DNA of 64,000 nucleotides from an uncultured Thermoplasmata archaeon (GCA_963768855.1 CAVYJM010000012.1:58961-122960); one strand, 5' to 3'. Positions 46,743 to 56,035 are shown, numbered from the stretch's first letter. Notes: generated by a model not told the origin, from the letters alone. Translations and numbers: made by a program.

Positions 46743-46826
46743 GCCCAGGTCGCCAAGCCCGGTATGGCGGCGGTCTCGAAAACCGCTGGCCGCAAGGCCC
46801 CGCAGGTTCAAATCCTGCCCTGGGCG
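46743..46826 (+). tRNA. tRNA-Ser (anticodon CGA), no encoded CCA
   Basis: Acceptor GCCCAGG/CCTGGGC; anticodon arm GCGGT-CT CGA AA-ACCGC; variable arm GGCC-GCAA-GGCC; T arm GCAGG-TTCAAAT-CCTGC. CTTAAG box about 30 nt upstream. Confidence 0.97.
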
Positions 46827-46859
46827 CTCTTATGGAGGGCCGAGTGCGTATTTTCTCAG

Positions 46860-47870
46860 TTATGGCTCAACCCGAACCACGGTCCGCGCCTCGCGGGCCT
46901 CGCGGAGGATGCGGAGGCTGTCTTGGCGCTTCATCCGACCGTAGTGCTTCAGGACGGTCTCCAGTTTCGTGTGGCCCGTGGCGTCCATCACGGCCTCCGC
47001 GGCGGCCCTCTCCCTGTAGCCTCGGGCGACGAGGGCGTCGATGCTCTGTTGTACGAAAGTGCTCCTGAAGGTCTTCAGGCCACGGAACTCGACCCCCGAG
47101 GTCTCCTGAAGTTGCTTCTTCAACTTGCGGAGCATCGCGGCGCTCCAGTAGTTCAGGGTCCCGTCCCTCCAGCGCATTGGGATGAGGGCCTCGTGGCGTT
47201 GTCCACCGAGGAACGCCCCGCGCTCGGCGAGGAAGTCGAGGATGGCGCCGCGGGCGGCGTTGTCGATGGGCACCTCGCGCTGTCGCCCGTAGGACCCCTC
47301 GCCCTTTGGGTGCGCCACGAGGATGCTCATCTTGCCCAAGTCGATGTCCGTGACGCGGGCCTGTCGAATCTCGCTCGGGCGCAATCCAGTCGCGGGCAGG
47401 ATGACCACGAGGAACCGCGCCACGGAGCCCCACCACCCCTCCATCGCCTCGGCCCCACGCCCCAGCAGGGCCAACTCGTCATCGCTGAGCGTCCTGATGT
47501 CCTTCTGGGGCGCCGTAGGTCGCCTGTAGAGCCTGCGTTGCTTGGCCACATCGATACAGGGGTTACCGAGCCACCCGAGGAACGCCGCGAGCACATCGAG
47601 GCGCTTATTGATGGTCTCGACATCCAGCCCGAGGCCGCTCCTCGTCGGCGCCTGCTTCCATTCCTGTAGGAGAACGCAGAGTTCGGGCCACGAGAGCTTC
47701 TCGGGTTGCGTGGTGCCGAGCCTCCCCGCCCGCCTCAGCCTCCAGAGGTCGCGGCCGATTTTGCGGAGGTCGCGCCCGTATCGGTCGAGCGTCGAGGGCC
47801 TGTAGTAGGCCAGGATTTCTGGCACTTCGAGAAACCGCCTCACCGCGGTCAGGAAGGGCTGGCGCGACAC
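46860..47870 (-). CDS. Tyrosine recombinase/integrase (start may be further upstream, e.g. TTG 47945)
   Basis: TGLRPSEI (Arg), HPKG (Lys), LKTFR (KxxR), TGHTKLETVLKHY (His, Tyr). Confidence 0.92.
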   Translation of the reverse strand: MSRQPFLTAVRRFLEVPEILAYYRPSTLDRYGRDLRKIGRDLWRLRRAGRLGTTQPEKLSWPELCVLLQEWKQAPTRSGLGLDVETINKRLDVLAAFLGWLGNPCIDVAKQRRLYRRPTAPQKDIRTLSDDELALLGRGAEAMEGWWGSVARFLVVILPATGLRPSEIRQARVTDIDLGKMSILVAHPKGEGSYGRQREVPIDNAARGAILDFLAERGAFLGGQRHEALIPMRWRDGTLNYWSAAMLRKLKKQLQETSGVEFRGLKTFRSTFVQQSIDALVARGYRERAAAEAVMDATGHTKLETVLKHYGRMKRQDSLRILREAREARTVVRVEP

Positions 47871-48815
47871 GGCGCGTGGCCTTCCCCTTCGACGCGGCGG
47901 CGGTCTCTCGGCTCCTGTCCCGTGGGTGTTTCCTTCGGCTTCCAAAGTCGAAGCACGGGGGTTTTCTCCTAGAGACAAGCGAAGTGTCCCGTCTTCGCTC
48001 GCCTTCGGAGAATCTATCGGCCTGCGAGAAGTTAATGCCTTCGGCCTCGGGCGACGGCGCCCGCGACGGCGGCCTAGCGAGAACAACGGCGTGGCGGTAC
48101 GGCTCCCGTGGCCGCCCGCCTCGCGTCATACAGACCCTTGCCCTCGTCGCGGCCGTGGACCGGCCGTGGCTCGCCGAGTATTGCCATCAATCCTTCTAGG
48201 CGAAGATCCCCTATAAACAATCGGGTCACGGCGCTCTTCGATCGGTGCGCCCCTCCGTGGGGCCCTCCGGTTATGACCGCAGATGCTAGAGAGGCTGAGC
48301 AGCATCCCGACCGTGGCTCGACCTGTCACGGCAGCCCGGAAATCTTTTTTATGCAGTTTCACGATAAAAGTGCTCTCCTGAGGAGCCGATTAGGACGCCT
48401 CTCCGGGCCTCTCTGCGTCGAGAACGGCTCTAATGCGTTCTAATGCGTTCCCAGAGGCCTTCCCGGGGCGCTTTCGGGAGGTTGGTCCCGGGTGAGGACA
48501 CCCGCGCTGCGAGCCCCCCATCTTGCGGTCCTCGGCGATGGTCCGCTCAGGGACGCGTCCTCCGGAGGGTCGGGTGCTATCAGTGTCAGTGATGACAGTG
48601 TCGCCGGAGCCCTTATGCGTCGGTACATCAATAGTATCGTGAGACGTCTGCGAAGCGAGCCCGGGGACGCCGCGAACGTCTCAACAGCCCGCCCGGGTGG
48701 CTTCCGTTTCTGGATCTGAAACAGGACGTCAATCTCGCGCTAGACCGATATCAGACCGAGTTCGGACACGTATCCGGGCAAGTAGAAGCCTGAGAGGTCC
48801 TCCTGAGGTGATGCA

Positions 48816-49151
48816 ATGTCCGTATACCCTCCCCAGAACAGCAAGCGTCCGCGGGGCTTCAGCCCGTCCGCGTGGCGGCGTTATGAGCGCCTACGTGCCG
48901 AACTCGAGGCCAAGGACCTGCGGGAGAACGGGCCTTGGTGGGAGCGCCAGCACTCGCCGCCACCACCGCCCGACCTTGCCGCAGCGAGGGAGGCCGACAG
49001 GGTCGAGCGCGCGCTCGCGGGCGGCGATATCGTCGCGATCGAGACGGATGGAAACGGCGTCGGCGTGGCGGTCATCGAGGGGCCGGAAGGCGAGCTCATC
49101 CGGGCCCGCGTGAAGATGGGGCTCCACGGTCAGGCGGGTGAGGGACCATGA
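48816..49151 (+). CDS. Hypothetical mobile-element protein
   Basis: ATG after a GAGGTG SD; ATGA coupling to the next ORF. Confidence 0.65.
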   Translation: MSVYPPQNSKRPRGFSPSAWRRYERLRAELEAKDLRENGPWWERQHSPPPPPDLAAAREADRVERALAGGDIVAIETDGNGVGVAVIEGPEGELIRARVKMGLHGQAGEGP

Positions 49152-49345
49152 GCGATCCCTTGAGGCTCTGGAAGCCAGTCCCGAGCGCAATCGTCGACGA
49201 GCCGCTCAACGCCGACGTGGAGTGGGCGCTGGTCGATCTCACGACCGGGAAGGTGGTCGTCCGGGTTACGGATGCCGAGATGGAGGCTCGATGCCCTGAG
49301 TGCGGCCTGCTCCACGGCGGCGGGGACTCCGACCGGGATGACTGA
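49148..49345 (+). CDS. Small hypothetical protein with CPECG motif
   Basis: ATGA overlap and GAGGG SD; RCPECGLLH could bind zinc. Confidence 0.6.
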   Translation: MSDPLRLWKPVPSAIVDEPLNADVEWALVDLTTGKVVVRVTDAEMEARCPECGLLHGGGDSDRDD

Positions 49346-49529
49346 GCAAGCCTGCCGTCCAGCTGGGTGAAGGGTCGTCCCCTCTGGCCCCGGCCCGGTG
49401 GATCTCTCCGCCCTTCATTCGGAAGGGGGTCCGAGGCCGGCTACCGGCTTCCCAGTGGACGGAACCGGAGGCGCGATCTACCTATCCGCTCACTAAGATT
49501 GATAAGTCGATTCCTGCGCATCCTTGGTG

Positions 49530-50105
49530 ATGGAGCGACGAAGACCCTCTGCTACGTTGCCTCGCCGCGTGCCCGAGGCCCCGCACAGTTCCGGGGTCGT
49601 CATCGAATGGCACGGAAGGGACATCACCCAGGGTCGGGCGCGGTCCGAGCCTCGCCCCATCGCCTACCCCGATTGGATTGGACGGTGCCGTATGCTACAG
49701 CCCGGGTGTCGGAGGTTCTACCTACGGTGGCGTAAGGACAAGGCGCCCGTTTGCCCAAATCCTCGCTGTCGACGGAGACTCTACACACTCCGCAAACTCC
49801 GTCGGGAGGGGCGGTTGACCAAAGAGGAGTTCCGGTTCGAGGTGTCCGCCTTGGAGTTCGACTTCGTCGACCCCGTCCCGTGGCAGCAACGGGCGGCCGA
49901 GTATGCGGCCCTCAAGGCACGGCTGGGATGGTGCGAGGTCAAAGCCCCAGGATGCCGAGGCGTCGCGGTCGGTTGGAGGAAGGACCGCGTCCCGGCTCAG
50001 ACGGGCAACGGCCGAGCGCCGATAGCCTGCGGGAACGAGGCCTGCTGGCGCCGCGCCGCGGCTCTGGCGCACCGAGAACGAAGGAGGTCACGGACACGCC
50101 CTTGA
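49530..50105 (+). CDS. Basic protein with two tandem Cys4 repeats
   Basis: C-x5-GC-x6-WRKD...C-x4-C occurs twice. Confidence 0.65.
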   Translation: MERRRPSATLPRRVPEAPHSSGVVIEWHGRDITQGRARSEPRPIAYPDWIGRCRMLQPGCRRFYLRWRKDKAPVCPNPRCRRRLYTLRKLRREGRLTKEEFRFEVSALEFDFVDPVPWQQRAAEYAALKARLGWCEVKAPGCRGVAVGWRKDRVPAQTGNGRAPIACGNEACWRRAAALAHRERRRSRTRP

Positions 50106-50237
50106 CGCGTGCCGAACCCGAAGAGGGTCTTAGTGGAGTCCTACGAGGAATGCCAGTTATCCTGGAGGCCTGCCTCGGGGCCGTGGAAGATGCCCTGTCG
50201 CCGCAAGTTGGAGCCTCATCGGGGTGGTGAGGGAAGA

Positions 50238-50390
50238 ATGTCCGAGTGCACCCATATCCAGCCCTGTTTCTGCGGCCGTCCCCGAATCCGTCGGCGTCGG
50301 CGGTTCAGGTCGGGGAGACGTCTGAGGATGCCGTTCCAGCGGATTCGGCGCCCCAGTGTTCGCCAGGGGCGGCGTCCTAGGTCGGAATAG
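50238..50390 (+). CDS. Small Arg-rich ORF (50 aa, 18 Arg)
   Basis: ATG after GAGGG; sequence MSECTHIQPCFCGRPRIRRRRRF...; could be spurious. Confidence 0.35.
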   Translation: MSECTHIQPCFCGRPRIRRRRRFRSGRRLRMPFQRIRRPSVRQGRRPRSE

Positions 50391-50922
50391 TGGCGGATCT
50401 GGCTGTCGGGTGCCTGCCTCCAGCCATTTCTCGTTCTGCATTGTAGATTCAAGCGTCCGTGCTGTTGACAGACCCGCGCAAAGAACCAACGTGAGAACTG
50501 TTCCTTCATCGGACAGCTAACGGTACAGTTTCCTCGCGGTCCGGGATGCACGATTTGGCGCCGTTTCTGACGTCTGTCGTGACGATCGGTGGAGACTGTT
50601 CCCCCAAGTGGGTGCGATGCGTTGGGCGGACTAGCCCATTTCGCCCAAATCCGCCCATGACGGGCAATAGACGATTCGGCGCTCGCGTCCGGCCACCGGA
50701 CGGTGGCCGGACAGTCAGACGACGATAAGCGTGGGGAGGGTGCCCCCGCCCCGTCGCCCCCTCGGGAACCGCCTCAAGCCACACTTTCCTGCATCGAATC
50801 CAGCTCGCCCGCTATAGTTCCCGATTGGGTTACTTCCGACCGAAAAGTACTACTTGCCTGACGGTCCGTGTCGCGTTTCGGGCAAGCTCGAATCCGGCGA
50901 TCCATCGGAGGGCTGACTTCAG

Positions 50923-51978
50923 TTGGTGGCGAAGAGGACTTCAAGCGTTCTTTACCGGAGTGGCGGAGGGAGGGTACTCCTCTGCCCGAACCGCTCAAAA
51001 GTTGTAATGCCGACGTACTTTCCTGCTATCTCAGGAACAGGCACGAACGCACTCCCCCAGGATCTAGTCAGCTTGGTCGCGACCAGCTCCTACCCCCGGA
51101 TTCTCGTTTCAGCCTTCGACTTGACGGCTCTGCAGGTTGATCACCAGAGGAAGGCGATACACGACTTGGTCCAGTTCAGGAAGAGCGGCGGAGTGGTGCT
51201 GCTCGATAGCGGTGCTTTTGAGAGCTTCTGGCTCCGGGGGGACAAATGGACCTTCAAAACATACTCAGAAGCAGTCCGCCGGTTTCCCTCGGACTTCTAC
51301 TGCTCGTTTGACCAATATCACGTCCGAGGTCGGCCACGCAAGCCAGTTGGGATGCGTCTCGTCCAGGTGGCCGACTCCTCTGCAAAGATAAGGCCCGATG
51401 CAACCTGCCTCTTCATTGCCCGTGGGCCAACACCGAGCCGCCTCGTGACCGCTGTCAAGAGCCTGATCGATCGCCGCTCGGTTCCAGTGGAAGCGATAGC
51501 TGTCCCTGAGCGTGAATGCGGGCCAAATCTTCTCGCGAGGTCGAAGACCGTGGCTCAGGTGAGGTCTGTCTTGTCAGAGAGATCGGAAGGAATCATTCTA
51601 CATCTGCTCGGATGTGGCCACCCCAAGTCACTCGCGATCTACGCCTACTGCGGTGCCGACTCATTCGACAGCCAAGATTGGTCGCAACTGGCGGTCGATC
51701 GGAACACGCTTGAATTTGTTGACATAGCGCACCTTGAGCTCGTTCATTGCAAGTGTGGCGTCTGCAGCCGCATAAAGGTTGACAACTACCAGAGAACTCT
51801 CCTCCACAATCTCCTGTTCTATCAGGATTTCGCGATACAGCTACAGCGTATGATTCGGGAGAACACAATGCGAGACTTCTTGATGGCGAGGTTGGGGGAA
51901 CCGTTTCTGAAGAAGCTCGAGACGGCGGTTAGCATATCAGCTCCCTCTTCTCTAGTTTCCACAAATGTCGGAAATTGA
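50923..51978 (+). CDS. tRNA-guanine transglycosylase-fold protein (Cap10-like)
   Basis: MPTYFPAIS, VLLDSGAFE, CSFD, HLLGCG, GADSFDS and a C-terminal HCKCGVC...LLHNL zinc site; no PUA domain. Confidence 0.85.
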   Translation: MVAKRTSSVLYRSGGGRVLLCPNRSKVVMPTYFPAISGTGTNALPQDLVSLVATSSYPRILVSAFDLTALQVDHQRKAIHDLVQFRKSGGVVLLDSGAFESFWLRGDKWTFKTYSEAVRRFPSDFYCSFDQYHVRGRPRKPVGMRLVQVADSSAKIRPDATCLFIARGPTPSRLVTAVKSLIDRRSVPVEAIAVPERECGPNLLARSKTVAQVRSVLSERSEGIILHLLGCGHPKSLAIYAYCGADSFDSQDWSQLAVDRNTLEFVDIAHLELVHCKCGVCSRIKVDNYQRTLLHNLLFYQDFAIQLQRMIRENTMRDFLMARLGEPFLKKLETAVSISAPSSLVSTNVGN

Positions 51979-51984
51979 GGTGGA

Positions 51985-52698
51985 TTGGCCATGAGTTGGG
52001 CGAGCCCAGCATTTGTTCCGACCTCTGTGTTGCTCAGCTATTCAACTTTGAACGATGAGCAGCAGTGCCAAGAGTCGTGGACGACTATGAGCGAGCATCG
52101 ACTCTGGCGGGAACTCACACTATGCATTCTCTCTTCGAACACCCTCTTTGAGACCGCCGCCTCCGCGACCAAGTGTCTAGAGAAACGCGGCTTGCTGCGT
52201 AGGCTTAGACAGGAGCCAGACCCGAGGGTCGCTCGTACCGTCTATCGGGTTCTGGCTTCACCGCTCTTCCTGCCCACCTGTCAAGATGGCCGATTGCGGC
52301 GTTATCGATTTCCTCGAACGAAGAGTGACCAGCTCTTGGGGGCCGCCCGATTGGTCTATGTCGATCCCGATTGCGACGGGCTAAGGGAGATCCTTTCCCG
52401 CATGAGCTCTGGAGAAGAAGCTAGGGAGTACTTCCGATCGCATGTGCCCGGCATGGGAATGAAGGAGGCGTCTCACTTCCTCCGGAATGTGGGTTTTGCA
52501 ACCGACTTGGCAATCATCGATGTTCACATGAAGCGCTTCCTCCAGAGCATCGCAGCCATTCCGGACGAGATTCTCACAAGTACGAGGAGGAGGGACTACT
52601 TGAGACTCGAAGAATTGGTACGAGATATTGCAGAGGCAAACGACCTCTCCCTTCCTCTTTTCGACCTTGCAGTGTGGGAGTGTTTCAGGTTGGGATAG
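51985..52698 (+). CDS. HhH N-glycosylase/DNA lyase, 8-oxoG glycosylase type (Cap11-like)
   Basis: ELTLCILSS, RFPRTK, GMGMKEASHFLRNVG, AIIDVH. Confidence 0.88.
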   Translation: MAMSWASPAFVPTSVLLSYSTLNDEQQCQESWTTMSEHRLWRELTLCILSSNTLFETAASATKCLEKRGLLRRLRQEPDPRVARTVYRVLASPLFLPTCQDGRLRRYRFPRTKSDQLLGAARLVYVDPDCDGLREILSRMSSGEEAREYFRSHVPGMGMKEASHFLRNVGFATDLAIIDVHMKRFLQSIAAIPDEILTSTRRRDYLRLEELVRDIAEANDLSLPLFDLAVWECFRLG

Positions 52699-52702
52699 TC
52701 GC

Positions 52703-53371
52703 ATGACAATCGTTGCACTCGCTTCGGGCGGTCTCGATTCCTCAGTGATGATGGGGCTTATGAAACTCGAGGGAATTGATGTTCTGCCAGTGCACGTTGA
52801 CTACGGGCAACGCAGTGAAGCACAGGAATGGAAGGCGTGTCAAGCTTTCTGCACGACAGTAGGACTGAAGGACCCAGTGAGATTCGAGTTGCCTGCCCTT
52901 GGTCAGATTCCGAGTGGCCTGACCAACCCTCGAATTGATGTCAATTACGCCTTTTTCCCAACGAGGAATCTTCTGCTGCTCACGATCGGCGCAGCTTTCG
53001 CGTATTCGAAGAATGTCGATACGGTCGCGATAGGATTGATTGGGAACGCTGTGTTCCCAGATCAGACAGAGAGCTTCAGGAAGCAAGCTGAATCTGCAAT
53101 CGCGACAAGTGTTGCAAGAAATCTGAAGGTTGTGGCCCCCCTGCTCCTTCTGGACAAGGGGGAAGTCATGAGGCTGGCCCGAGCGGCGGCGTTGCCAATC
53201 GACCTGACCTACTCTTGTCACGTTGGAAACGTGGAACCTTGCGGCGTGTGCGCTGCTTGCCGCGAAAGGAAGGCCGCCCAAGCAGTTCCGGAATCCAGGG
53301 ATCTCAGCAAGCAGACTAGGGAGGCGCGGATACAACTCGGCACCGCGATCCGAGGTGGTCATAGTGGGTAG
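52703..53371 (+). CDS. QueC-like ATP pyrophosphatase (Cap9-like)
   Basis: SGGLDS, YGQR, PTRNLLL, FPDQ, TYSCH...PCGVCAACRER. Confidence 0.92.
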   Translation: MTIVALASGGLDSSVMMGLMKLEGIDVLPVHVDYGQRSEAQEWKACQAFCTTVGLKDPVRFELPALGQIPSGLTNPRIDVNYAFFPTRNLLLLTIGAAFAYSKNVDTVAIGLIGNAVFPDQTESFRKQAESAIATSVARNLKVVAPLLLLDKGEVMRLARAAALPIDLTYSCHVGNVEPCGVCAACRERKAAQAVPESRDLSKQTREARIQLGTAIRGGHSG

Positions 53372-53855
53372 CAGTGGGCATGTCGCTGCTTTTGGTCGGT
53401 CGGTCTCTGCATCTCATCGGATGTTCCGAACTGGAATCGATGAAGCTGAGCAGGCAACGCGAGGGCCGCCCAAGGTGAGAAATGTCTTCATAAGTTTTCA
53501 CGTCGGGGACGAGGCGCAAGTCAATCTTCTTCGATCACAATCGAAGAACGAGGACTTCGGCATGGAGTTCAGGGACTACTCCGTCAAAGAACCGTTTGAC
53601 GAAGCGTGGAAGCGCAACTGTGCTGATCGGATTGGACAGACATCCGTGACCATCTGCATGATCAGTCCCGACACCGCAAGTAGGGAGGCAGTCAATTGGG
53701 AACTCGAAGAGAGCTACCGACAGGGACATCAGGTGGTCGGCGTGCGGATATATCGCGATCGGAGCGACCCCGTGCCCGAACCGATTCTCCAGCACAACAG
53801 TCGAGTAATCTACTGGGATCGAGATGAGTTGAACAGATATGTCAAACACCAATGA
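53364..53855 (+). CDS. TIR domain protein (DUF1863/ThsB-like) with N-terminal extension starting (M)GSSG
   Basis: NVFISFH, DYSVKEP, TICMIS, VNWELEES (catalytic Glu at 53700), VVGVRI. GTG 53364 follows a GAGGTG SD and overlaps the QueC-like stop. Confidence 0.88.
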   Translation: MGSSGHVAAFGRSVSASHRMFRTGIDEAEQATRGPPKVRNVFISFHVGDEAQVNLLRSQSKNEDFGMEFRDYSVKEPFDEAWKRNCADRIGQTSVTICMISPDTASREAVNWELEESYRQGHQVVGVRIYRDRSDPVPEPILQHNSRVIYWDRDELNRYVKHQ

Positions 53856-54402
53856 ACCGGGTGGGGGTGTCTCAGTGAAGCCTCGCGACGAGTCAGATAA
53901 CCTGTTCCAGATTCCGAAGTCGCTCTATGGACCTCTTTATGAAGGGCACCTTCTCGAACAGTACAAGATCGCTGTTCAGATGGCCGACAATGTCAGCGGC
54001 CGGAGAATTACTGCGAACGAATTCTTCCTTGGCGTGAACTCTGTACTTGCCTCTCTGGCAGGTGCCGCAGTTGCTTTCGGAGGTTCTGCCCAGGGTGGAC
54101 TTCGTAGCGTGTCCGTCTCCCTAAGCGTAGTCGGCATCATATTCTCAGCAGTTTGGATCCTGACCCTGTCGACATACAGAGAGTTGAATCGTGCCAAATT
54201 CGAGGTCATTAACCGACTAGAACGGCATCTGCCCGCGGCACCATTCCTCGCAGAGTGGGAGTCGATAAGTCCAGCCCCATCCCGGGGGAAGGTCAAGCCT
54301 ACCCGGTACAGGGGTCTGACATCAGTCGAATCACTCGTTCCCGTAGGATTTGTTCTGCTATACGTGATCCTTCTGGTTGGAATCCTCCTAGGGGCGCTGT
54401 AG
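53839..54402 (+). CDS. Small 3-TM membrane protein, putative pore-forming effector
   Basis: EQYK...RR..AN.FF..N, W...Y..LN.AKF.VI..LE..LP, EW and a C-terminal TM. Overlaps the TIR stop. Confidence 0.8.
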   Translation: MSNTNEPGGGVSVKPRDESDNLFQIPKSLYGPLYEGHLLEQYKIAVQMADNVSGRRITANEFFLGVNSVLASLAGAAVAFGGSAQGGLRSVSVSLSVVGIIFSAVWILTLSTYRELNRAKFEVINRLERHLPAAPFLAEWESISPAPSRGKVKPTRYRGLTSVESLVPVGFVLLYVILLVGILLGAL

Positions 54403-55127: not shown

Positions 55128-55227
55128 ATTCGGAACCCGTCCCTTCAGCTATGTGTGCTCTAGTTATGCTCTCGGCGGGGTGGGTGAAAGTGCTCGCCTG
55201 GCGCGTCATGGCTGTGGACCGTGAAGT

Positions 55228-55261
55228 GAAGGTGCCCGCCCTTGCGGGCGGGCGTGAGGGG
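55228..55261 (+). repeat. 34-bp palindromic direct repeat, copy 1
   Basis: GAAGGTGCCCGCCCTTGCGGGCGGGCGTGAGGGG; 33 of 34 bases identical to copy 2. Confidence 0.9.
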
Positions 55262-55949: not shown

Positions 55950-56001
55950 AGGGGGCACAGGCGGTGACCTGATGATTAACACCCGTGCGAGAGAGAAGAG
56001 C

Positions 56002-56035
56002 GAAGGTGCCCGCCCTTGCGGGCGGGCATGAGGGG
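56002..56035 (+). repeat. 34-bp palindromic direct repeat, copy 2
   Basis: GAAGGTGCCCGCCCTTGCGGGCGGGCATGAGGGG; 9-bp stem TGCCCGCCC/GGGCGGGCA with a TTGC loop. Confidence 0.9.

What the first reader, a model, noticed from the sequence alone, without database searches (positions are those of the whole stretch)
50923..54402. Type IV CBASS ancillary trio (TGT, glycosylase, QueC) coupled to a TIR plus membrane effector instead of a CD-NTase
Seen: five co-oriented genes, spaced 4-6 nt apart or overlapping, in lower-GC cargo beside a tRNA-linked integrase. The order is TGT-like, OGG-like glycosylase, QueC-like, TIR, 3-TM protein. Established: the TGT/QueC/N-glycosylase trio (Cap10/Cap9/Cap11) defines type IV CBASS, where it serves a cGAS/DncV-like nucleotidyltransferase. 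DUF1863-type TIRs make the signal in Thoeris, and the Thoeris types I know lack this trio. No nucleotidyltransferase ORF (GS...DxD) is visible within the operon or in the flanking 48-56 kb. Inference: an archaeal hybrid antiviral system in which the Cap9/10/11 module controls a TIR signalling enzyme that activates a membrane effector.
Basis: partly seen in the sequence, partly recalled or inferred. Interest (0 to 1): 0.95.

Follow-up and report, generated by a model that had tools for sequence, protein, structure and literature searches.

The report
TIR defence operon with deazaguanine-tagging helpers
This archaeal five-gene cluster is most likely an antiviral system in which a TIR signalling enzyme and a small membrane protein are controlled by the three QueC/TGT/OGG-like helper genes known from type IV CBASS; it is real and widely conserved, but a 2025 preprint had already noted the layout, and nobody has tested it.

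Summary
Five co-oriented, tightly packed genes encode a Cap10-like TGT, a Cap11-like OGG glycosylase, a Cap9-like QueC, a ThsB-type TIR and a 3-TM protein of Pfam family 8xMP. The operon is 55% GC in a 66% GC genome. No CD-NTase was found in the flanks or in the genome.

The same gene set recurs in 18 other distinct loci from Thermoplasmata, Bathyarchaeia, Nitrososphaeria and a Brocadia bacterium. The 8xMP gene changes place and strand between them.

The TIR starts at GTG 53364, giving MGSSGH. Most of 116 homologues begin M-(G/S)-G-G, the motif on which Cap9 attaches 7-amido-7-deazaguanine in type IV CBASS. The QueC and TGT proteins cluster with CBASS Cap9 and Cap10, not with housekeeping enzymes. 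A complex prediction supports TIR binding to the TGT-like protein (0.62 versus 0.00 in controls).

My reading is a Thoeris-type system whose TIR is regulated by N-terminal deazaguanylation and signals to a membrane effector.

It is not new. Yirmiya et al. (bioRxiv, December 2025, Fig. 6G and S10B) reported Thoeris operons with cap9/10/11 from sequence alone, and this scan has met the system on other genomes. The 8xMP effector and the size of the archaeal clade are the modest additions.

The parts
46743..46827 (+). tRNA-Ser (CGA), a possible integration target; context only
   Evidence: ARAGORN. No duplicated 3' end was found downstream.
46860..48086 (-). Tyrosine recombinase/integrase, 2.8 kb upstream of the operon; context only
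   Evidence: PF00589, E 6e-10. This stretch has genome-typical GC of 65%.
50923..51978 (+). Cap10-like TGT-fold protein, 351 aa, with no tRNA-binding C-terminal domains
   Evidence: Family hits: PF01702 and PADLOC PDLC00913. PDB hits to Cap10 9ntn and arcTGT 1iq8. NCBIfam arcTGT scores 45.6 bits against a cut-off of 350.

Residues invariant in the family: D95/S96/G97, D130, H227, D249 and the Zn site C276/C278/C281/H295. H227 and D249 align with the Cap10 catalytic pair H226/D248.

The tree places it with CBASS Cap10 and apart from arcTGT. The TTG 50923 start fits the homologue N-termini.
51985..52698 (+). Cap11-like OGG (Ogg2-type HhH-GPD glycosylase); ATG at 51991
   Evidence: PF22175 E 8e-33. 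NCBIfam N-glycosylase/DNA lyase scores 122.8 bits, below the equivalog cut-off of 183. Best PDB hits are archaeal Ogg 3fhg, 3fhf and 3knt. K158 and D177, in GxGxK(E/Q)AS...(I/L)D.H, are invariant in 16 system copies.
52703..53371 (+). Cap9-like QueC (PP-loop ATPase), 222 aa
   Evidence: PF06508 and PADLOC PDLC00911. Best PDB hit is Cap9 9nto (7.7e-17), ahead of QueC 2pg3 (2e-13). TIGR00364 scores 106 bits against a cut-off of 150.

Conserved residues: SGGLDS 8-13, R88/N89, D120 and Zn cysteines C172/C180/C183/C186.

In the tree, housekeeping QueCs split off at 96/96 and the TIR-linked copies group with CBASS Cap9.
53364..53855 (+). ThsB-type TIR, 163 aa: Gly/Ser tail (M)GSSGH, helix about 14-31, TIR domain 39-161, catalytic W112-E113 (codon 53700)
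   Evidence: PF08937 and PADLOC ThsB models. PDB hits to ThsB 6lhy and 9b7d.

Homologues of about 160 aa cover 98-100% of this start. GAGGTG lies 5 nt before the GTG, which overlaps the QueC stop.

W112/E113 are invariant.
53839..54402 (+). 8xMP (RipA-family) membrane protein, 187 aa, 3 TM; presumed effector
   Evidence: PF24838, 125 bits. Three hydrophobic segments. AF2 model has pLDDT 85.6.

Invariant residues: Q41, Y42, R56, N60, W106, K120, E128, P132, E139, E164, P168.

It is always next to the TIR, though place and strand vary. The start overlaps the TIR stop by 17 nt.

Best explanation
This is a Thoeris-type (TIR-signalling) antiviral operon that carries the ancillary module of type IV CBASS in place of a bare two-gene core.

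Proposed mechanism:
1. Removal of Met1 exposes Gly2 of the TIR.
2. The Cap9-like QueC uses ATP to activate 7-carboxy-7-deazaguanine, made by the host's own archaeosine pathway. It couples this base to the free N-terminal amine of the TIR (deazaguanylation, NDG).
3. The Cap10-like TGT-fold protein binds the tagged tail and the following helix. It either holds the TIR in a primed or restrained state or passes it on to an unknown target.
4. The Cap11-like OGG glycosylase acts as a negative regulator or reset.
5. On infection the TIR (catalytic Glu113) converts NAD+ into a cyclic-ADPR-type signal.
6. The signal binds the oligomeric 3-TM 8xMP protein, which breaches or depolarises the membrane and aborts the infection.

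What is shown here: the gene content, conservation of the operon, conservation of the tail motif and catalytic residues, kinship of the helpers with Cap9/Cap10, and a supported TIR-TGT interface prediction.

What is inferred by analogy with type IV CBASS and Thoeris: the chemistry, the identity of the signal, the effector's action and the antiviral phenotype.
For: 1. Family assignments for all five proteins.

2. The full TGT-OGG-QueC-TIR-8xMP set occurs in 18 further distinct loci. They come from Thermoplasmata, Bathyarchaeia, Nitrososphaerales/Nitrosopumilus/Nitrosotenuis and a Ca. Brocadia MAG. The 8xMP gene lies upstream, downstream on the same strand, or downstream on the opposite strand. 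This argues for functional linkage rather than inherited synteny.

3. The TIR tail. Of 116 homologues with the N-terminal extension, 83 begin M-[G/S/A]-G-[G/S]. Another 22 show the motif just inside a probably mis-called start. This matches the M(G/S)G(G/S)GG site where Cap9 attaches NDG to Gly2 of the CD-NTase (Wassarman et al.). Real type IV CBASS cyclases from the same phylum begin MGGSGGGG.

4. The tail tracks the helper genes. All loci with a TGT-like neighbour have the 35-40 aa extension. Seven loci without one (Chloroflexota, Bacteroidota) have TIRs that start 3 residues before strand A.

5. Catalytic residues are intact:
- QueC: SGGLDS, R88/N89, D120 and the Zn cysteines.
- TGT: H227/D249, aligning with the Cap10 catalytic pair H226/D248.
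- OGG: K158/D177.
- TIR: W112-E113.

6. Trees. Housekeeping QueCs are separated at 96/96 from TIR-linked QueC plus CBASS Cap9. arcTGTs are separated at 99 from TIR-linked TGT plus CBASS Cap10, which join at 93 (quick tree).

7. Complex prediction of TGT-like with TIR: ipSAE 0.62 against a best control of 0.00. That mark was reached by 58 of 80 solved complexes and 2 of 110 mismatched pairs. The runs agree in at least 70% of contacts and the partner pLDDT is at least 71. The interface uses TIR helix 14-35. A Cap10-CdnD complex is solved, so the pass may partly reflect likeness to that structure.

8. TIR-8xMP pairs also exist without any helper genes (L040, L042, L043, L038). That is what is expected if TIR plus 8xMP is the signalling core.

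9. No CD-NTase in the window or the genome.

10. Yirmiya et al. independently describe cap9/10/11-associated Thoeris operons and an AF3-predicted ThsB-Cap10/Cap9 interaction.
Against: - Nothing here is experimental. No Cap9/10/11-linked Thoeris has been tested at the bench.
- The window's tail is MGSSGH, with Ser rather than the usual Gly at position 3.
- The Gly tail itself (residues 1-13) is not among the confident contacts of the predicted complex. The model has no NDG ligand.
- The helpers are distant from canonical CBASS Cap9/Cap10. PADLOC scores are 60.6 bits (TGT) and 108 bits (QueC), against 204-368 and 271 bits for real CBASS copies from the same phylum. The family profile hits arcTGT slightly better than Cap10.
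- The trees rest on only 2-3 CBASS sequences with long branches. The TGT tree is the quick version.
- 8xMP has no recognisable ligand-binding domain and no solved or fold-level relative. Its effector role rests on adjacency alone.
- Yirmiya et al. themselves warn that in unverified types the TIR might be an NAD+-depleting effector.
Confidence: 0.72

Rival explanations
1. The same helper-controlled TIR system, but the TIR is itself the killing enzyme by depleting NAD+. On this reading 8xMP is an anchor, sensor or second toxin rather than a signal receptor.
For: Many prokaryotic TIRs are NADase effectors. The authors of the Thoeris survey state this caveat for all unverified types. 8xMP shows no known nucleotide-binding domain.
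Against: The TIR matches ThsB models specifically. A close relative in Table S1 of the survey sits in a TIR cluster labelled type IV Thoeris, which are signal-producing ThsBs. The tail motif puts the TIR in the position of the signal-producing CD-NTase, not of a CBASS effector. TIR and 8xMP form a strict pair with or without helpers, as sensor-effector pairs do.
Confidence: 0.13
2. A 7-deazaguanine nucleic-acid modification cassette (archaeosine-, Dpd- or phage-type DNA modification) that merely lies next to an unrelated TIR and membrane gene.
For: QueC, TGT and, in sister loci, a QueF-II-type gene are classic 7-deazaguanine pathway families. The TGT-like protein keeps the catalytic Asp and the Zn site and is as close to arcTGT as to Cap10 by profile.
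Against: - The genome has separate housekeeping QueC and arcTGT genes. The operon's copies fall outside them in both trees and far below the NCBIfam equivalog cut-offs.
- The TGT-like protein lacks the C-terminal tRNA-binding domains: 351 aa against about 580-760 aa ORFs for arcTGT.
- No QueD/QueE/FolE or Dpd partner genes are present, and there is no PADLOC Dpd or Qat hit.
- The link to a Gly-tailed TIR is conserved across phyla.
Confidence: 0.04
3. A type IV CBASS whose CD-NTase is encoded elsewhere or was lost, with the TIR acting as its NADase effector.
For: TIR domains are known CBASS effectors. Real type IV CBASS exists in this phylum.
Against: No SMODS-family gene anywhere in the 93.6%-complete genome. 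None of the 18 sister loci has a cyclase between or beside the genes. The TIR has no cyclic-nucleotide sensor domain, and it carries the N-terminal motif of the modified enzyme itself.
Confidence: 0.02

Closest known systems
[quoted passage not shown] 6G and S10B)
   Same: TIR plus effector plus cap9/cap10/cap11 in one operon, with no CD-NTase. There is a predicted TIR-Cap10 interaction there (AF3 ipTM 0.79) and here (ipSAE 0.62 against 0.00).
   Different: The preprint gives two sentences and one modelled bacterial example (a Pseudomonadales bacterium). There are no experiments, and the text I could read does not mention the tail motif or name the effector. This locus is archaeal and uses an 8xMP effector. 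It belongs to a clade of more than 500 90%-identity clusters. I could not see the figure, so the effector there may or may not be the same.
Type IV CBASS (CD-NTase + effector + Cap9/Cap10 with or without Cap11; mechanism in Wassarman et al., 10.1101/2025.04.06.647259)
   Same: QueC-like, TGT-like and OGG-like helpers that cluster with Cap9/Cap10. The M-(G/S)-G-G N-terminal tail is on the signalling enzyme. The catalytic residues of Cap9 and Cap10 are kept.
   Different: The signalling enzyme is a ThsB-type TIR, not a CD-NTase, and none is in the genome. The helpers are a distinct sub-clade, with PADLOC scores 3-6 times lower than real CBASS copies. The QueC keeps a canonical-QueC-like segment of about 12 residues that CBASS Cap9 lacks. 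The TGT-like protein keeps the Zn site.
Thoeris types I-XI (ThsB + ThsA/C/D/E/F/G/H/I/J/K/L)
   Same: A ThsB-family TIR with the catalytic Glu next to a dedicated effector gene. Membrane effectors that form ring oligomers are known, such as type V ThsF/DUF2270 (3 TM), type VII SLATT and type II Macro-TM. The TIR is close to a sequence filed in the type IV Thoeris TIR cluster.
   Different: The effector is Pfam 8xMP, which is not one of the eleven verified effector families and is not related by sequence to DUF2270. The helper module is absent from types I-XI. The signal molecule is unknown.
Three-gene archaeal variant: divergent TGT-fold protein + MGGG-tailed TIR + 8xMP (L017, L027-L036)
   Same: The same TIR and 8xMP families and the same Gly-rich tail.
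   Different: It has no QueC-like or OGG-like gene within 7 kb. Its TGT-fold protein is recognisable only by profile-profile comparison (hhalign 94.8%, E 5e-8).

Membership tests
Thoeris operons with cap9/cap10/cap11 (Yirmiya 2025) | ThsB-type TIR and an effector gene in one operon with QueC-like, TGT-like and OGG-like genes | tested here: met
   Junctions range from +6/+12 nt to -17 nt.
Thoeris operons with cap9/cap10/cap11 (Yirmiya 2025) | TIR predicted to contact Cap10/Cap9 as the CD-NTase does | tested here: met
   TGT-like with TIR: ipSAE 0.62 against a best control of 0.00. Runs agree in at least 70% of contacts and partner pLDDT is at least 71. This is a prediction only. The Cap9-like pair was not tested.
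Thoeris (TIR immune signalling) | ThsB-family TIR with the catalytic glutamate | tested here: met
   PF08937 E 1.9e-16 and PADLOC ThsB models. W112-E113 invariant in 39 sequences.
Thoeris (TIR immune signalling) | TIR makes a signalling molecule on infection that activates the neighbouring effector | not testable with these tools
   Only conserved adjacency of TIR and 8xMP is shown.
Type IV CBASS | A CD-NTase (cGAS/DncV-like nucleotidyltransferase) as the signalling enzyme | tested here: not met
   No cyclase hit in the operon or flanks. SMODS is absent from the 93.6%-complete genome. The method detects real examples, since cyclases were found in L075 and L076.
Type IV CBASS | Cap9 (QueC-like) and Cap10 (TGT-like) ancillary proteins of the Cap lineage | tested here: met
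   Best PDB hit of the QueC is Cap9. Trees group the proteins with CBASS Cap9/Cap10 and away from housekeeping enzymes. CBASS sampling is thin, at 2-3 sequences.
Type IV CBASS | N-terminal M(G/S)G(G/S)GG extension on the modified enzyme | tested here: met
   The motif is present on the TIR instead of a cyclase: MGSSGH here. 83 of 116 homologues start M-[GSA]-G-[GS], and 22 more carry it internally. The motif is defined.
Type IV CBASS | NDG (7-amido-7-deazaguanine) actually attached to Gly2 | not testable with these tools
   This needs mass spectrometry.
Housekeeping archaeosine/queuosine enzymes (QueC, arcTGT) | Scores above the NCBIfam equivalog cut-offs, and arcTGT C-terminal domains present | tested here: not met
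   QueC TIGR00364 scores 106 against 150. arcTGT TIGR00432 scores 45.6 against 350. The protein is 351 aa against about 580-760 aa ORFs for arcTGT. Separate housekeeping copies exist in the genome.
Dpd / QatABCD (other QueC- or TGT-containing defence systems) | DpdA/DpdB-K or QatA/B/D partner genes | tested here: not met
   The PADLOC scan of the operon and its neighbours gives only the CBASS-type TGT and QueC models and ThsB. No partner genes appear among the flanking ORFs.
8xMP (PF24838, 'octameric membrane protein', RipA family by automatic name) | Match above the Pfam gathering score over the whole domain | tested here: met
   125.2 bits against 30, profile positions 1-135 of 136. The Atlas neighbours are 8xMP clusters. 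The oligomeric state was not tested.

The most novel reading that the evidence does not exclude
The step after tagging is unknown even for type IV CBASS. The evidence does not exclude a covalent route in this TIR clade. The Cap10-like protein keeps the transglycosylase Asp/His pair and the Zn site. It could use base exchange to graft the NDG-tagged TIR onto a guanine position of a nucleic acid, host or viral, as the activating or localising step. The OGG-like glycosylase would then cut it off again. The activated TIR would gate a previously uncharacterised class of signal-operated pore (8xMP). That would be a protein-nucleic acid conjugation switch for immune signalling, and the first function for the 8xMP family in defence.
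Probability: 0.15. Interest if true: 0.85.

Novelty: new variant of a known kind. Interest (0 to 1): 0.42.

Why it matters
The finding gives a second, independent family of immune signalling enzymes (TIR as well as CD-NTase) that carries the same Gly-rich tail and the same QueC/TGT/OGG helpers. This would show that protein deazaguanylation is a portable regulatory module rather than a CBASS peculiarity.

The archaeal clade found here is large and compact. It also comes in graded forms:
- all three helpers;
- helpers plus QueF;
- a TGT-like protein only;
- no helpers.

These natural deletion variants could be used to work out what each helper does. The clade also offers a candidate function, a Thoeris effector, for the uncharacterised 8xMP membrane family.

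The value of this particular locus is limited. The layout is already in the literature and this scan has met it repeatedly.

Tried and rejected
- **Literature on '8xMP' and 'RipA octameric membrane protein'**: nothing relevant found. The name comes only from Pfam and an automatic Atlas label.
- **Fold searches for 8xMP:** Foldseek against the PDB gave no match with E <= 0.001. The Atlas search returned only other 8xMP clusters. A PDB sequence search found nothing. A relationship of 8xMP to DUF2270/ThsF or SLATT was looked for. Pfam at E <= 10 gave only a non-significant DUF4231 hit in one homologue, and the Atlas feature search listed SLATT as a second-tier neighbour. This is left as a lead.
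- **att site or island borders:** no repeat of the tRNA-Ser 3' end was found.
- **Flanking ORFs at 48.1-50.9 kb and 54.3-56.6 kb:** no Pfam, PADLOC or PHROG hits.
- **Viral contigs:** no relative of the TIR in IMG/VR.
- **QueF-like gene:** sought in the window's genome because sister loci have one, and not found by tblastn.
- **Phylum survey:** among 401 sampled genomes of the window's phylum, only the window's own genome has this TGT type, 432 bits against at most 71. The other 8xMP hits there are weak and not next to this TIR family.
- **Table S1 of the Yirmiya preprint:** searched for this TIR family and for 8xMP. The stored copy is cut, and only one close TIR was found, labelled type IV Thoeris. 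I therefore cannot say whether 8xMP is among their 29 putative effector types.
- **TGT tree:** the careful search did not finish in time, so the quick tree is reported.

Full report
**1. What is in the sequence**

Window 50923-54402 holds five + strand genes. Pfam and PADLOC assign them as follows.
- A TGT-fold protein: PF01702, and the PADLOC CBASS 'TGT' model at E 3.6e-17.
- An Ogg-HhH glycosylase: PF22175, E 8e-33.
- A QueC: PF06508, and the PADLOC CBASS 'QueC' model at E 1.5e-31.
- A ThsB-type TIR: PF08937, E 1.9e-16.
- A member of Pfam 8xMP: PF24838, 125 bits against a cut-off of 30.

The 8xMP protein has three hydrophobic segments.

Homologue alignments move three starts.
- QueC begins at ATG 52703.
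- The TIR begins at GTG 53364. GAGGTG lies 5 nt upstream, and the GTG overlaps the QueC stop.
- 8xMP begins at ATG 53839, overlapping the TIR stop by 17 nt.

The copy of this TIR in the protein collection is only 97 aa, from an internal Met (P0023). It therefore lacks both the tail and half the domain.

The operon is 55.1% GC against 66.2% for the first 46.7 kb of the window. The integrase beside tRNA-Ser lies 2.8 kb upstream in DNA of normal GC. I found no att repeat. 'Mobile cargo' is therefore plausible but its borders are unknown.

The flanking ORFs have no Pfam, PADLOC or PHROG match.

No CD-NTase is present in the flanks. SMODS finds nothing in the whole genome of 24 contigs, which is 93.6% complete.

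**2. It is a conserved system**

The TIR has 535 relatives at E <= 1e-3. Nearly all are about 160 aa and cover the whole protein from GTG 53364.

Look-ups of encoding contigs and a scan of one genome per species, annotated with HMMs built from the operon's proteins, gave three layouts.
- The complete TGT-OGG-QueC-TIR-8xMP set appears in 18 further distinct loci. These are Thermoplasmata (L008-L010, the window's nearest relatives in both trees), Bathyarchaeia, Nitrososphaerales/Nitrosopumilus/Nitrosotenuis, an unnamed archaeon and one Ca. Brocadia bacterium.
- The four enzyme genes keep their order. The 8xMP gene sits upstream (L002), downstream on the opposite strand (L005, L006, L011, L012), or downstream on the same strand (the window and the rest).
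- Six of these loci add a QueF-II-type gene (TIGR03139, 117 bits against a cut-off of 86.9). The window's genome has none.

**3. The helpers belong to the Cap9/Cap10 lineage**

*Sequence searches.*
- The QueC's best solved relative is Cap9 (9nto, 7.7e-17), ahead of canonical QueC.
- The TGT-like protein hits Cap10 (9ntn) and arcTGT about equally.
- Both proteins fall far below the NCBIfam equivalog cut-offs.
- The genome has its own housekeeping QueC and arcTGT genes elsewhere.

*Outgroups.* A survey of 401 genomes of the window's phylum found this TGT type only in the window's genome, at 432 bits against at most 71 for arcTGTs. The same survey turned up two real type IV CBASS loci, L075 and L076. 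PADLOC scores their cyclases at 398 and 218 bits, and the cyclases begin MGGSGGGG. These loci served as outgroups.

*Trees.*
- In the QueC tree, six housekeeping QueCs split off at 96/96. The TIR-linked QueCs group with CBASS Cap9.
- In the TGT tree (quick search, SH-aLRT only), ten arcTGTs split off at 99. The TIR-linked proteins join CBASS Cap10 at 93.

*Caveats.* There are only 2-3 CBASS sequences, and their branches are long. No QatC or Dpd sequences were included.

*A distinct sub-clade.* PADLOC scores for the window's helpers are 3-6 times lower than for the real CBASS copies. The QueC keeps a canonical-QueC-like segment that Cap9 lacks. The TGT-like protein keeps the Zn site.

**4. The TIR carries the deazaguanylation tail**

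Wassarman et al. showed that Cap9 attaches 7-amido-7-deazaguanine to Gly2 of the CD-NTase. All type IV cyclases have an N-terminal extension beginning M(G/S)G(G/S)GG. Cap10 binds the tagged tail through residues D73/S74/D122/K154 and has the catalytic pair D248/H226.

The window's TIR has the matching anatomy.
- It begins (M)GSSGH. An AF2 model gives a disordered tail at 1-13, a helix at 14-31 and a TIR domain at 39-161.
- Of 116 homologues with the extension, 83 begin M-[G/S/A]-G-[G/S], and 22 more show the motif just inside a longer called start.
- The extension tracks the helper genes. Every locus with a TGT-like neighbour has it. Seven loci without one (Chloroflexota, Bacteroidota) have TIRs that start three residues before strand A.

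Catalytic residues are kept in every protein.
- QueC: SGGLDS, R88/N89, D120 and four Zn cysteines.
- TGT-like: D95/S96, D130, and H227/D249 aligned to Cap10 H226/D248.
- OGG: K158/D177, invariant in 16 copies.
- TIR: W112-E113, invariant.

A controlled complex prediction of the TGT-like protein with the TIR scored ipSAE 0.62 against 0.00 for the best of three controls.
- That mark was reached by 58 of 80 solved complexes and 2 of 110 mismatched pairs.
- The runs agree in at least 70% of contacts and the partner pLDDT is at least 71.
- The interface uses TIR helix 14-35 and the C-terminal part of the TGT-like protein.
- A Cap10-CdnD complex is solved, so part of this pass may be likeness to it.

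**5. The effector**

TIR and 8xMP are neighbours in every layout, including helper-free pairs (L040, L042, L043, L038). This fits a signal-producer and receptor core.

The AF2 model (pLDDT 85.6) is a long helical hairpin plus a C-terminal TM helix. Invariant polar residues cluster in the cytoplasmic helices: Q41, Y42, R56, N60, K120, E128, E139.

No solved or fold-level relative was found. The protein is unrelated by sequence to the 3-TM type V effector DUF2270.

Its role as a signal-gated pore is inferred from adjacency and from the precedent of membrane effectors in Thoeris types II, V and VII.

A close relative of this TIR in the preprint's Table S1 sits in a cluster labelled type IV Thoeris, whose TIRs make N7-cADPR. 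This is only a lead to the identity of the signal.

**6. Comparison with what is known**

Yirmiya et al. [quoted passage not shown] They model a Pseudomonadales ThsB with Cap10 (ipTM 0.79) and Cap9 (0.62).

They report no experiment on these operons. They warn that in unverified types the TIR could be an NADase effector.

Earlier follow-ups in this scan reached the same verdict on other genomes, and one described the three-gene variant in section 7. I reached my conclusions from my own tests before reading them.

- conservation of the tail motif on the TIRs;
- the 8xMP effector;
- the size and range of the archaeal clade;
- the graded variants.

**7. Variants noticed**

Eleven loci have only a 270-350 aa protein upstream of an MGGG-tailed TIR and 8xMP. 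They come from Bathyarchaeia, Woesearchaeota, Micrarchaeota, Methanosarcina, Methanolobus, Methanogenium and Methanoregula.

Ten of the eleven upstream proteins were scanned against Pfam (L035 was left out). Only one gave a hit to the TGT family, and that was weak. By profile-profile comparison the group is a very divergent TGT fold (hhalign 94.8%, E 5e-8).

No QueC-like or OGG-like gene lies within 7 kb of these loci. How such tails would be tagged is unexplained.

**8. Verdict**

- Observation: confirmed.
- Interpretation: supported in substance, but the arrangement was already noted in the literature.
- The system fails membership of type IV CBASS because it has no CD-NTase. It works like type IV CBASS at the regulatory level and like Thoeris at the signalling level.
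- Novelty: a new variant of a known kind, being archaeal, with an 8xMP effector and a distinct helper sub-clade.
- Interest: moderate.

Noticed in passing
L002:2432-2833, L005:3939-4355, L006:4028-4414, L011:71-469, L012:4132-4515, L019:3861-4238: Six sister loci carry a QueF-II-type (preQ1 synthase-like) gene directly upstream of the TGT-like gene. TIGR03139 scores 117 bits, above the cut-off of 86.9. The window's genome has no such gene. A nitrile reductase homologue in a protein-deazaguanylation operon is unexplained.
   Followed up: partly
L017, L027-L036 (e.g. L034:5897-7867, Methanosarcina hadiensis): Three-gene variant: a very divergent TGT-fold protein (hhalign 94.8% to the Cap10-like family), an MGGG-tailed TIR and 8xMP. 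No QueC-like or OGG-like gene lies within 7 kb. The Methanosarcina genome has a Cap9-like QueC elsewhere (L082) that clusters with CBASS Cap9.
   Followed up: partly
L040, L042, L043 (Chloroflexota); L038 (Flavobacteriia): Helper-free TIR plus 8xMP pairs in bacteria. Their TIRs lack the N-terminal extension. This looks like the bare two-gene core of the system.
   Followed up: partly
L075 (G217:C94) and L076 (G304:C4): Real type IV CBASS loci in genomes of the window's phylum: QueC, TGT and a cyclase whose product begins MGGSGGGG. They were used as outgroups for the trees.
   Followed up: partly
window 53364-53855 / protein P0023: The copy of this TIR in the protein collection is only 97 aa and starts at an internal Met (MEFRDYS...). 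That call loses the Gly tail and the first half of the TIR domain. A gene call that skips the GTG start would make this system hard to recognise.
   Followed up: yes
L019:7501-8014 (Ca. Brocadia MAG): The 8xMP gene of the only bacterial full-set locus is split into two overlapping ORFs of 101 and 79 aa. This may be a frameshift or an assembly error.
   Followed up: no
window 55225-55261 and 55999-56035: Two 37-nt direct repeats, 95% identical, each a GC-rich hairpin (GCCCGCCC-TTGC-GGGCGGGC), lie 774 nt apart. The ORFs between them have no Pfam, PADLOC or PHROG match.
   Followed up: partly
window 48100-50900: This 2.8 kb stretch between the integrase and the operon has genome-typical GC (65%). 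It contains many overlapping ORFs but not one family match. What it encodes is unknown.
   Followed up: partly
Table S1 of bioRxiv 10.64898/2025.12.03.692087: A TIR very like this family (…FISFHIDDEAQVNLLRHQ…SVKEPFDEKWK…) is filed there in cluster 2635319349 under 'Caspase - Type IV'. This hints that the TIR lineage is shared with type IV Thoeris, whose signal is N7-cADPR.
   Followed up: no
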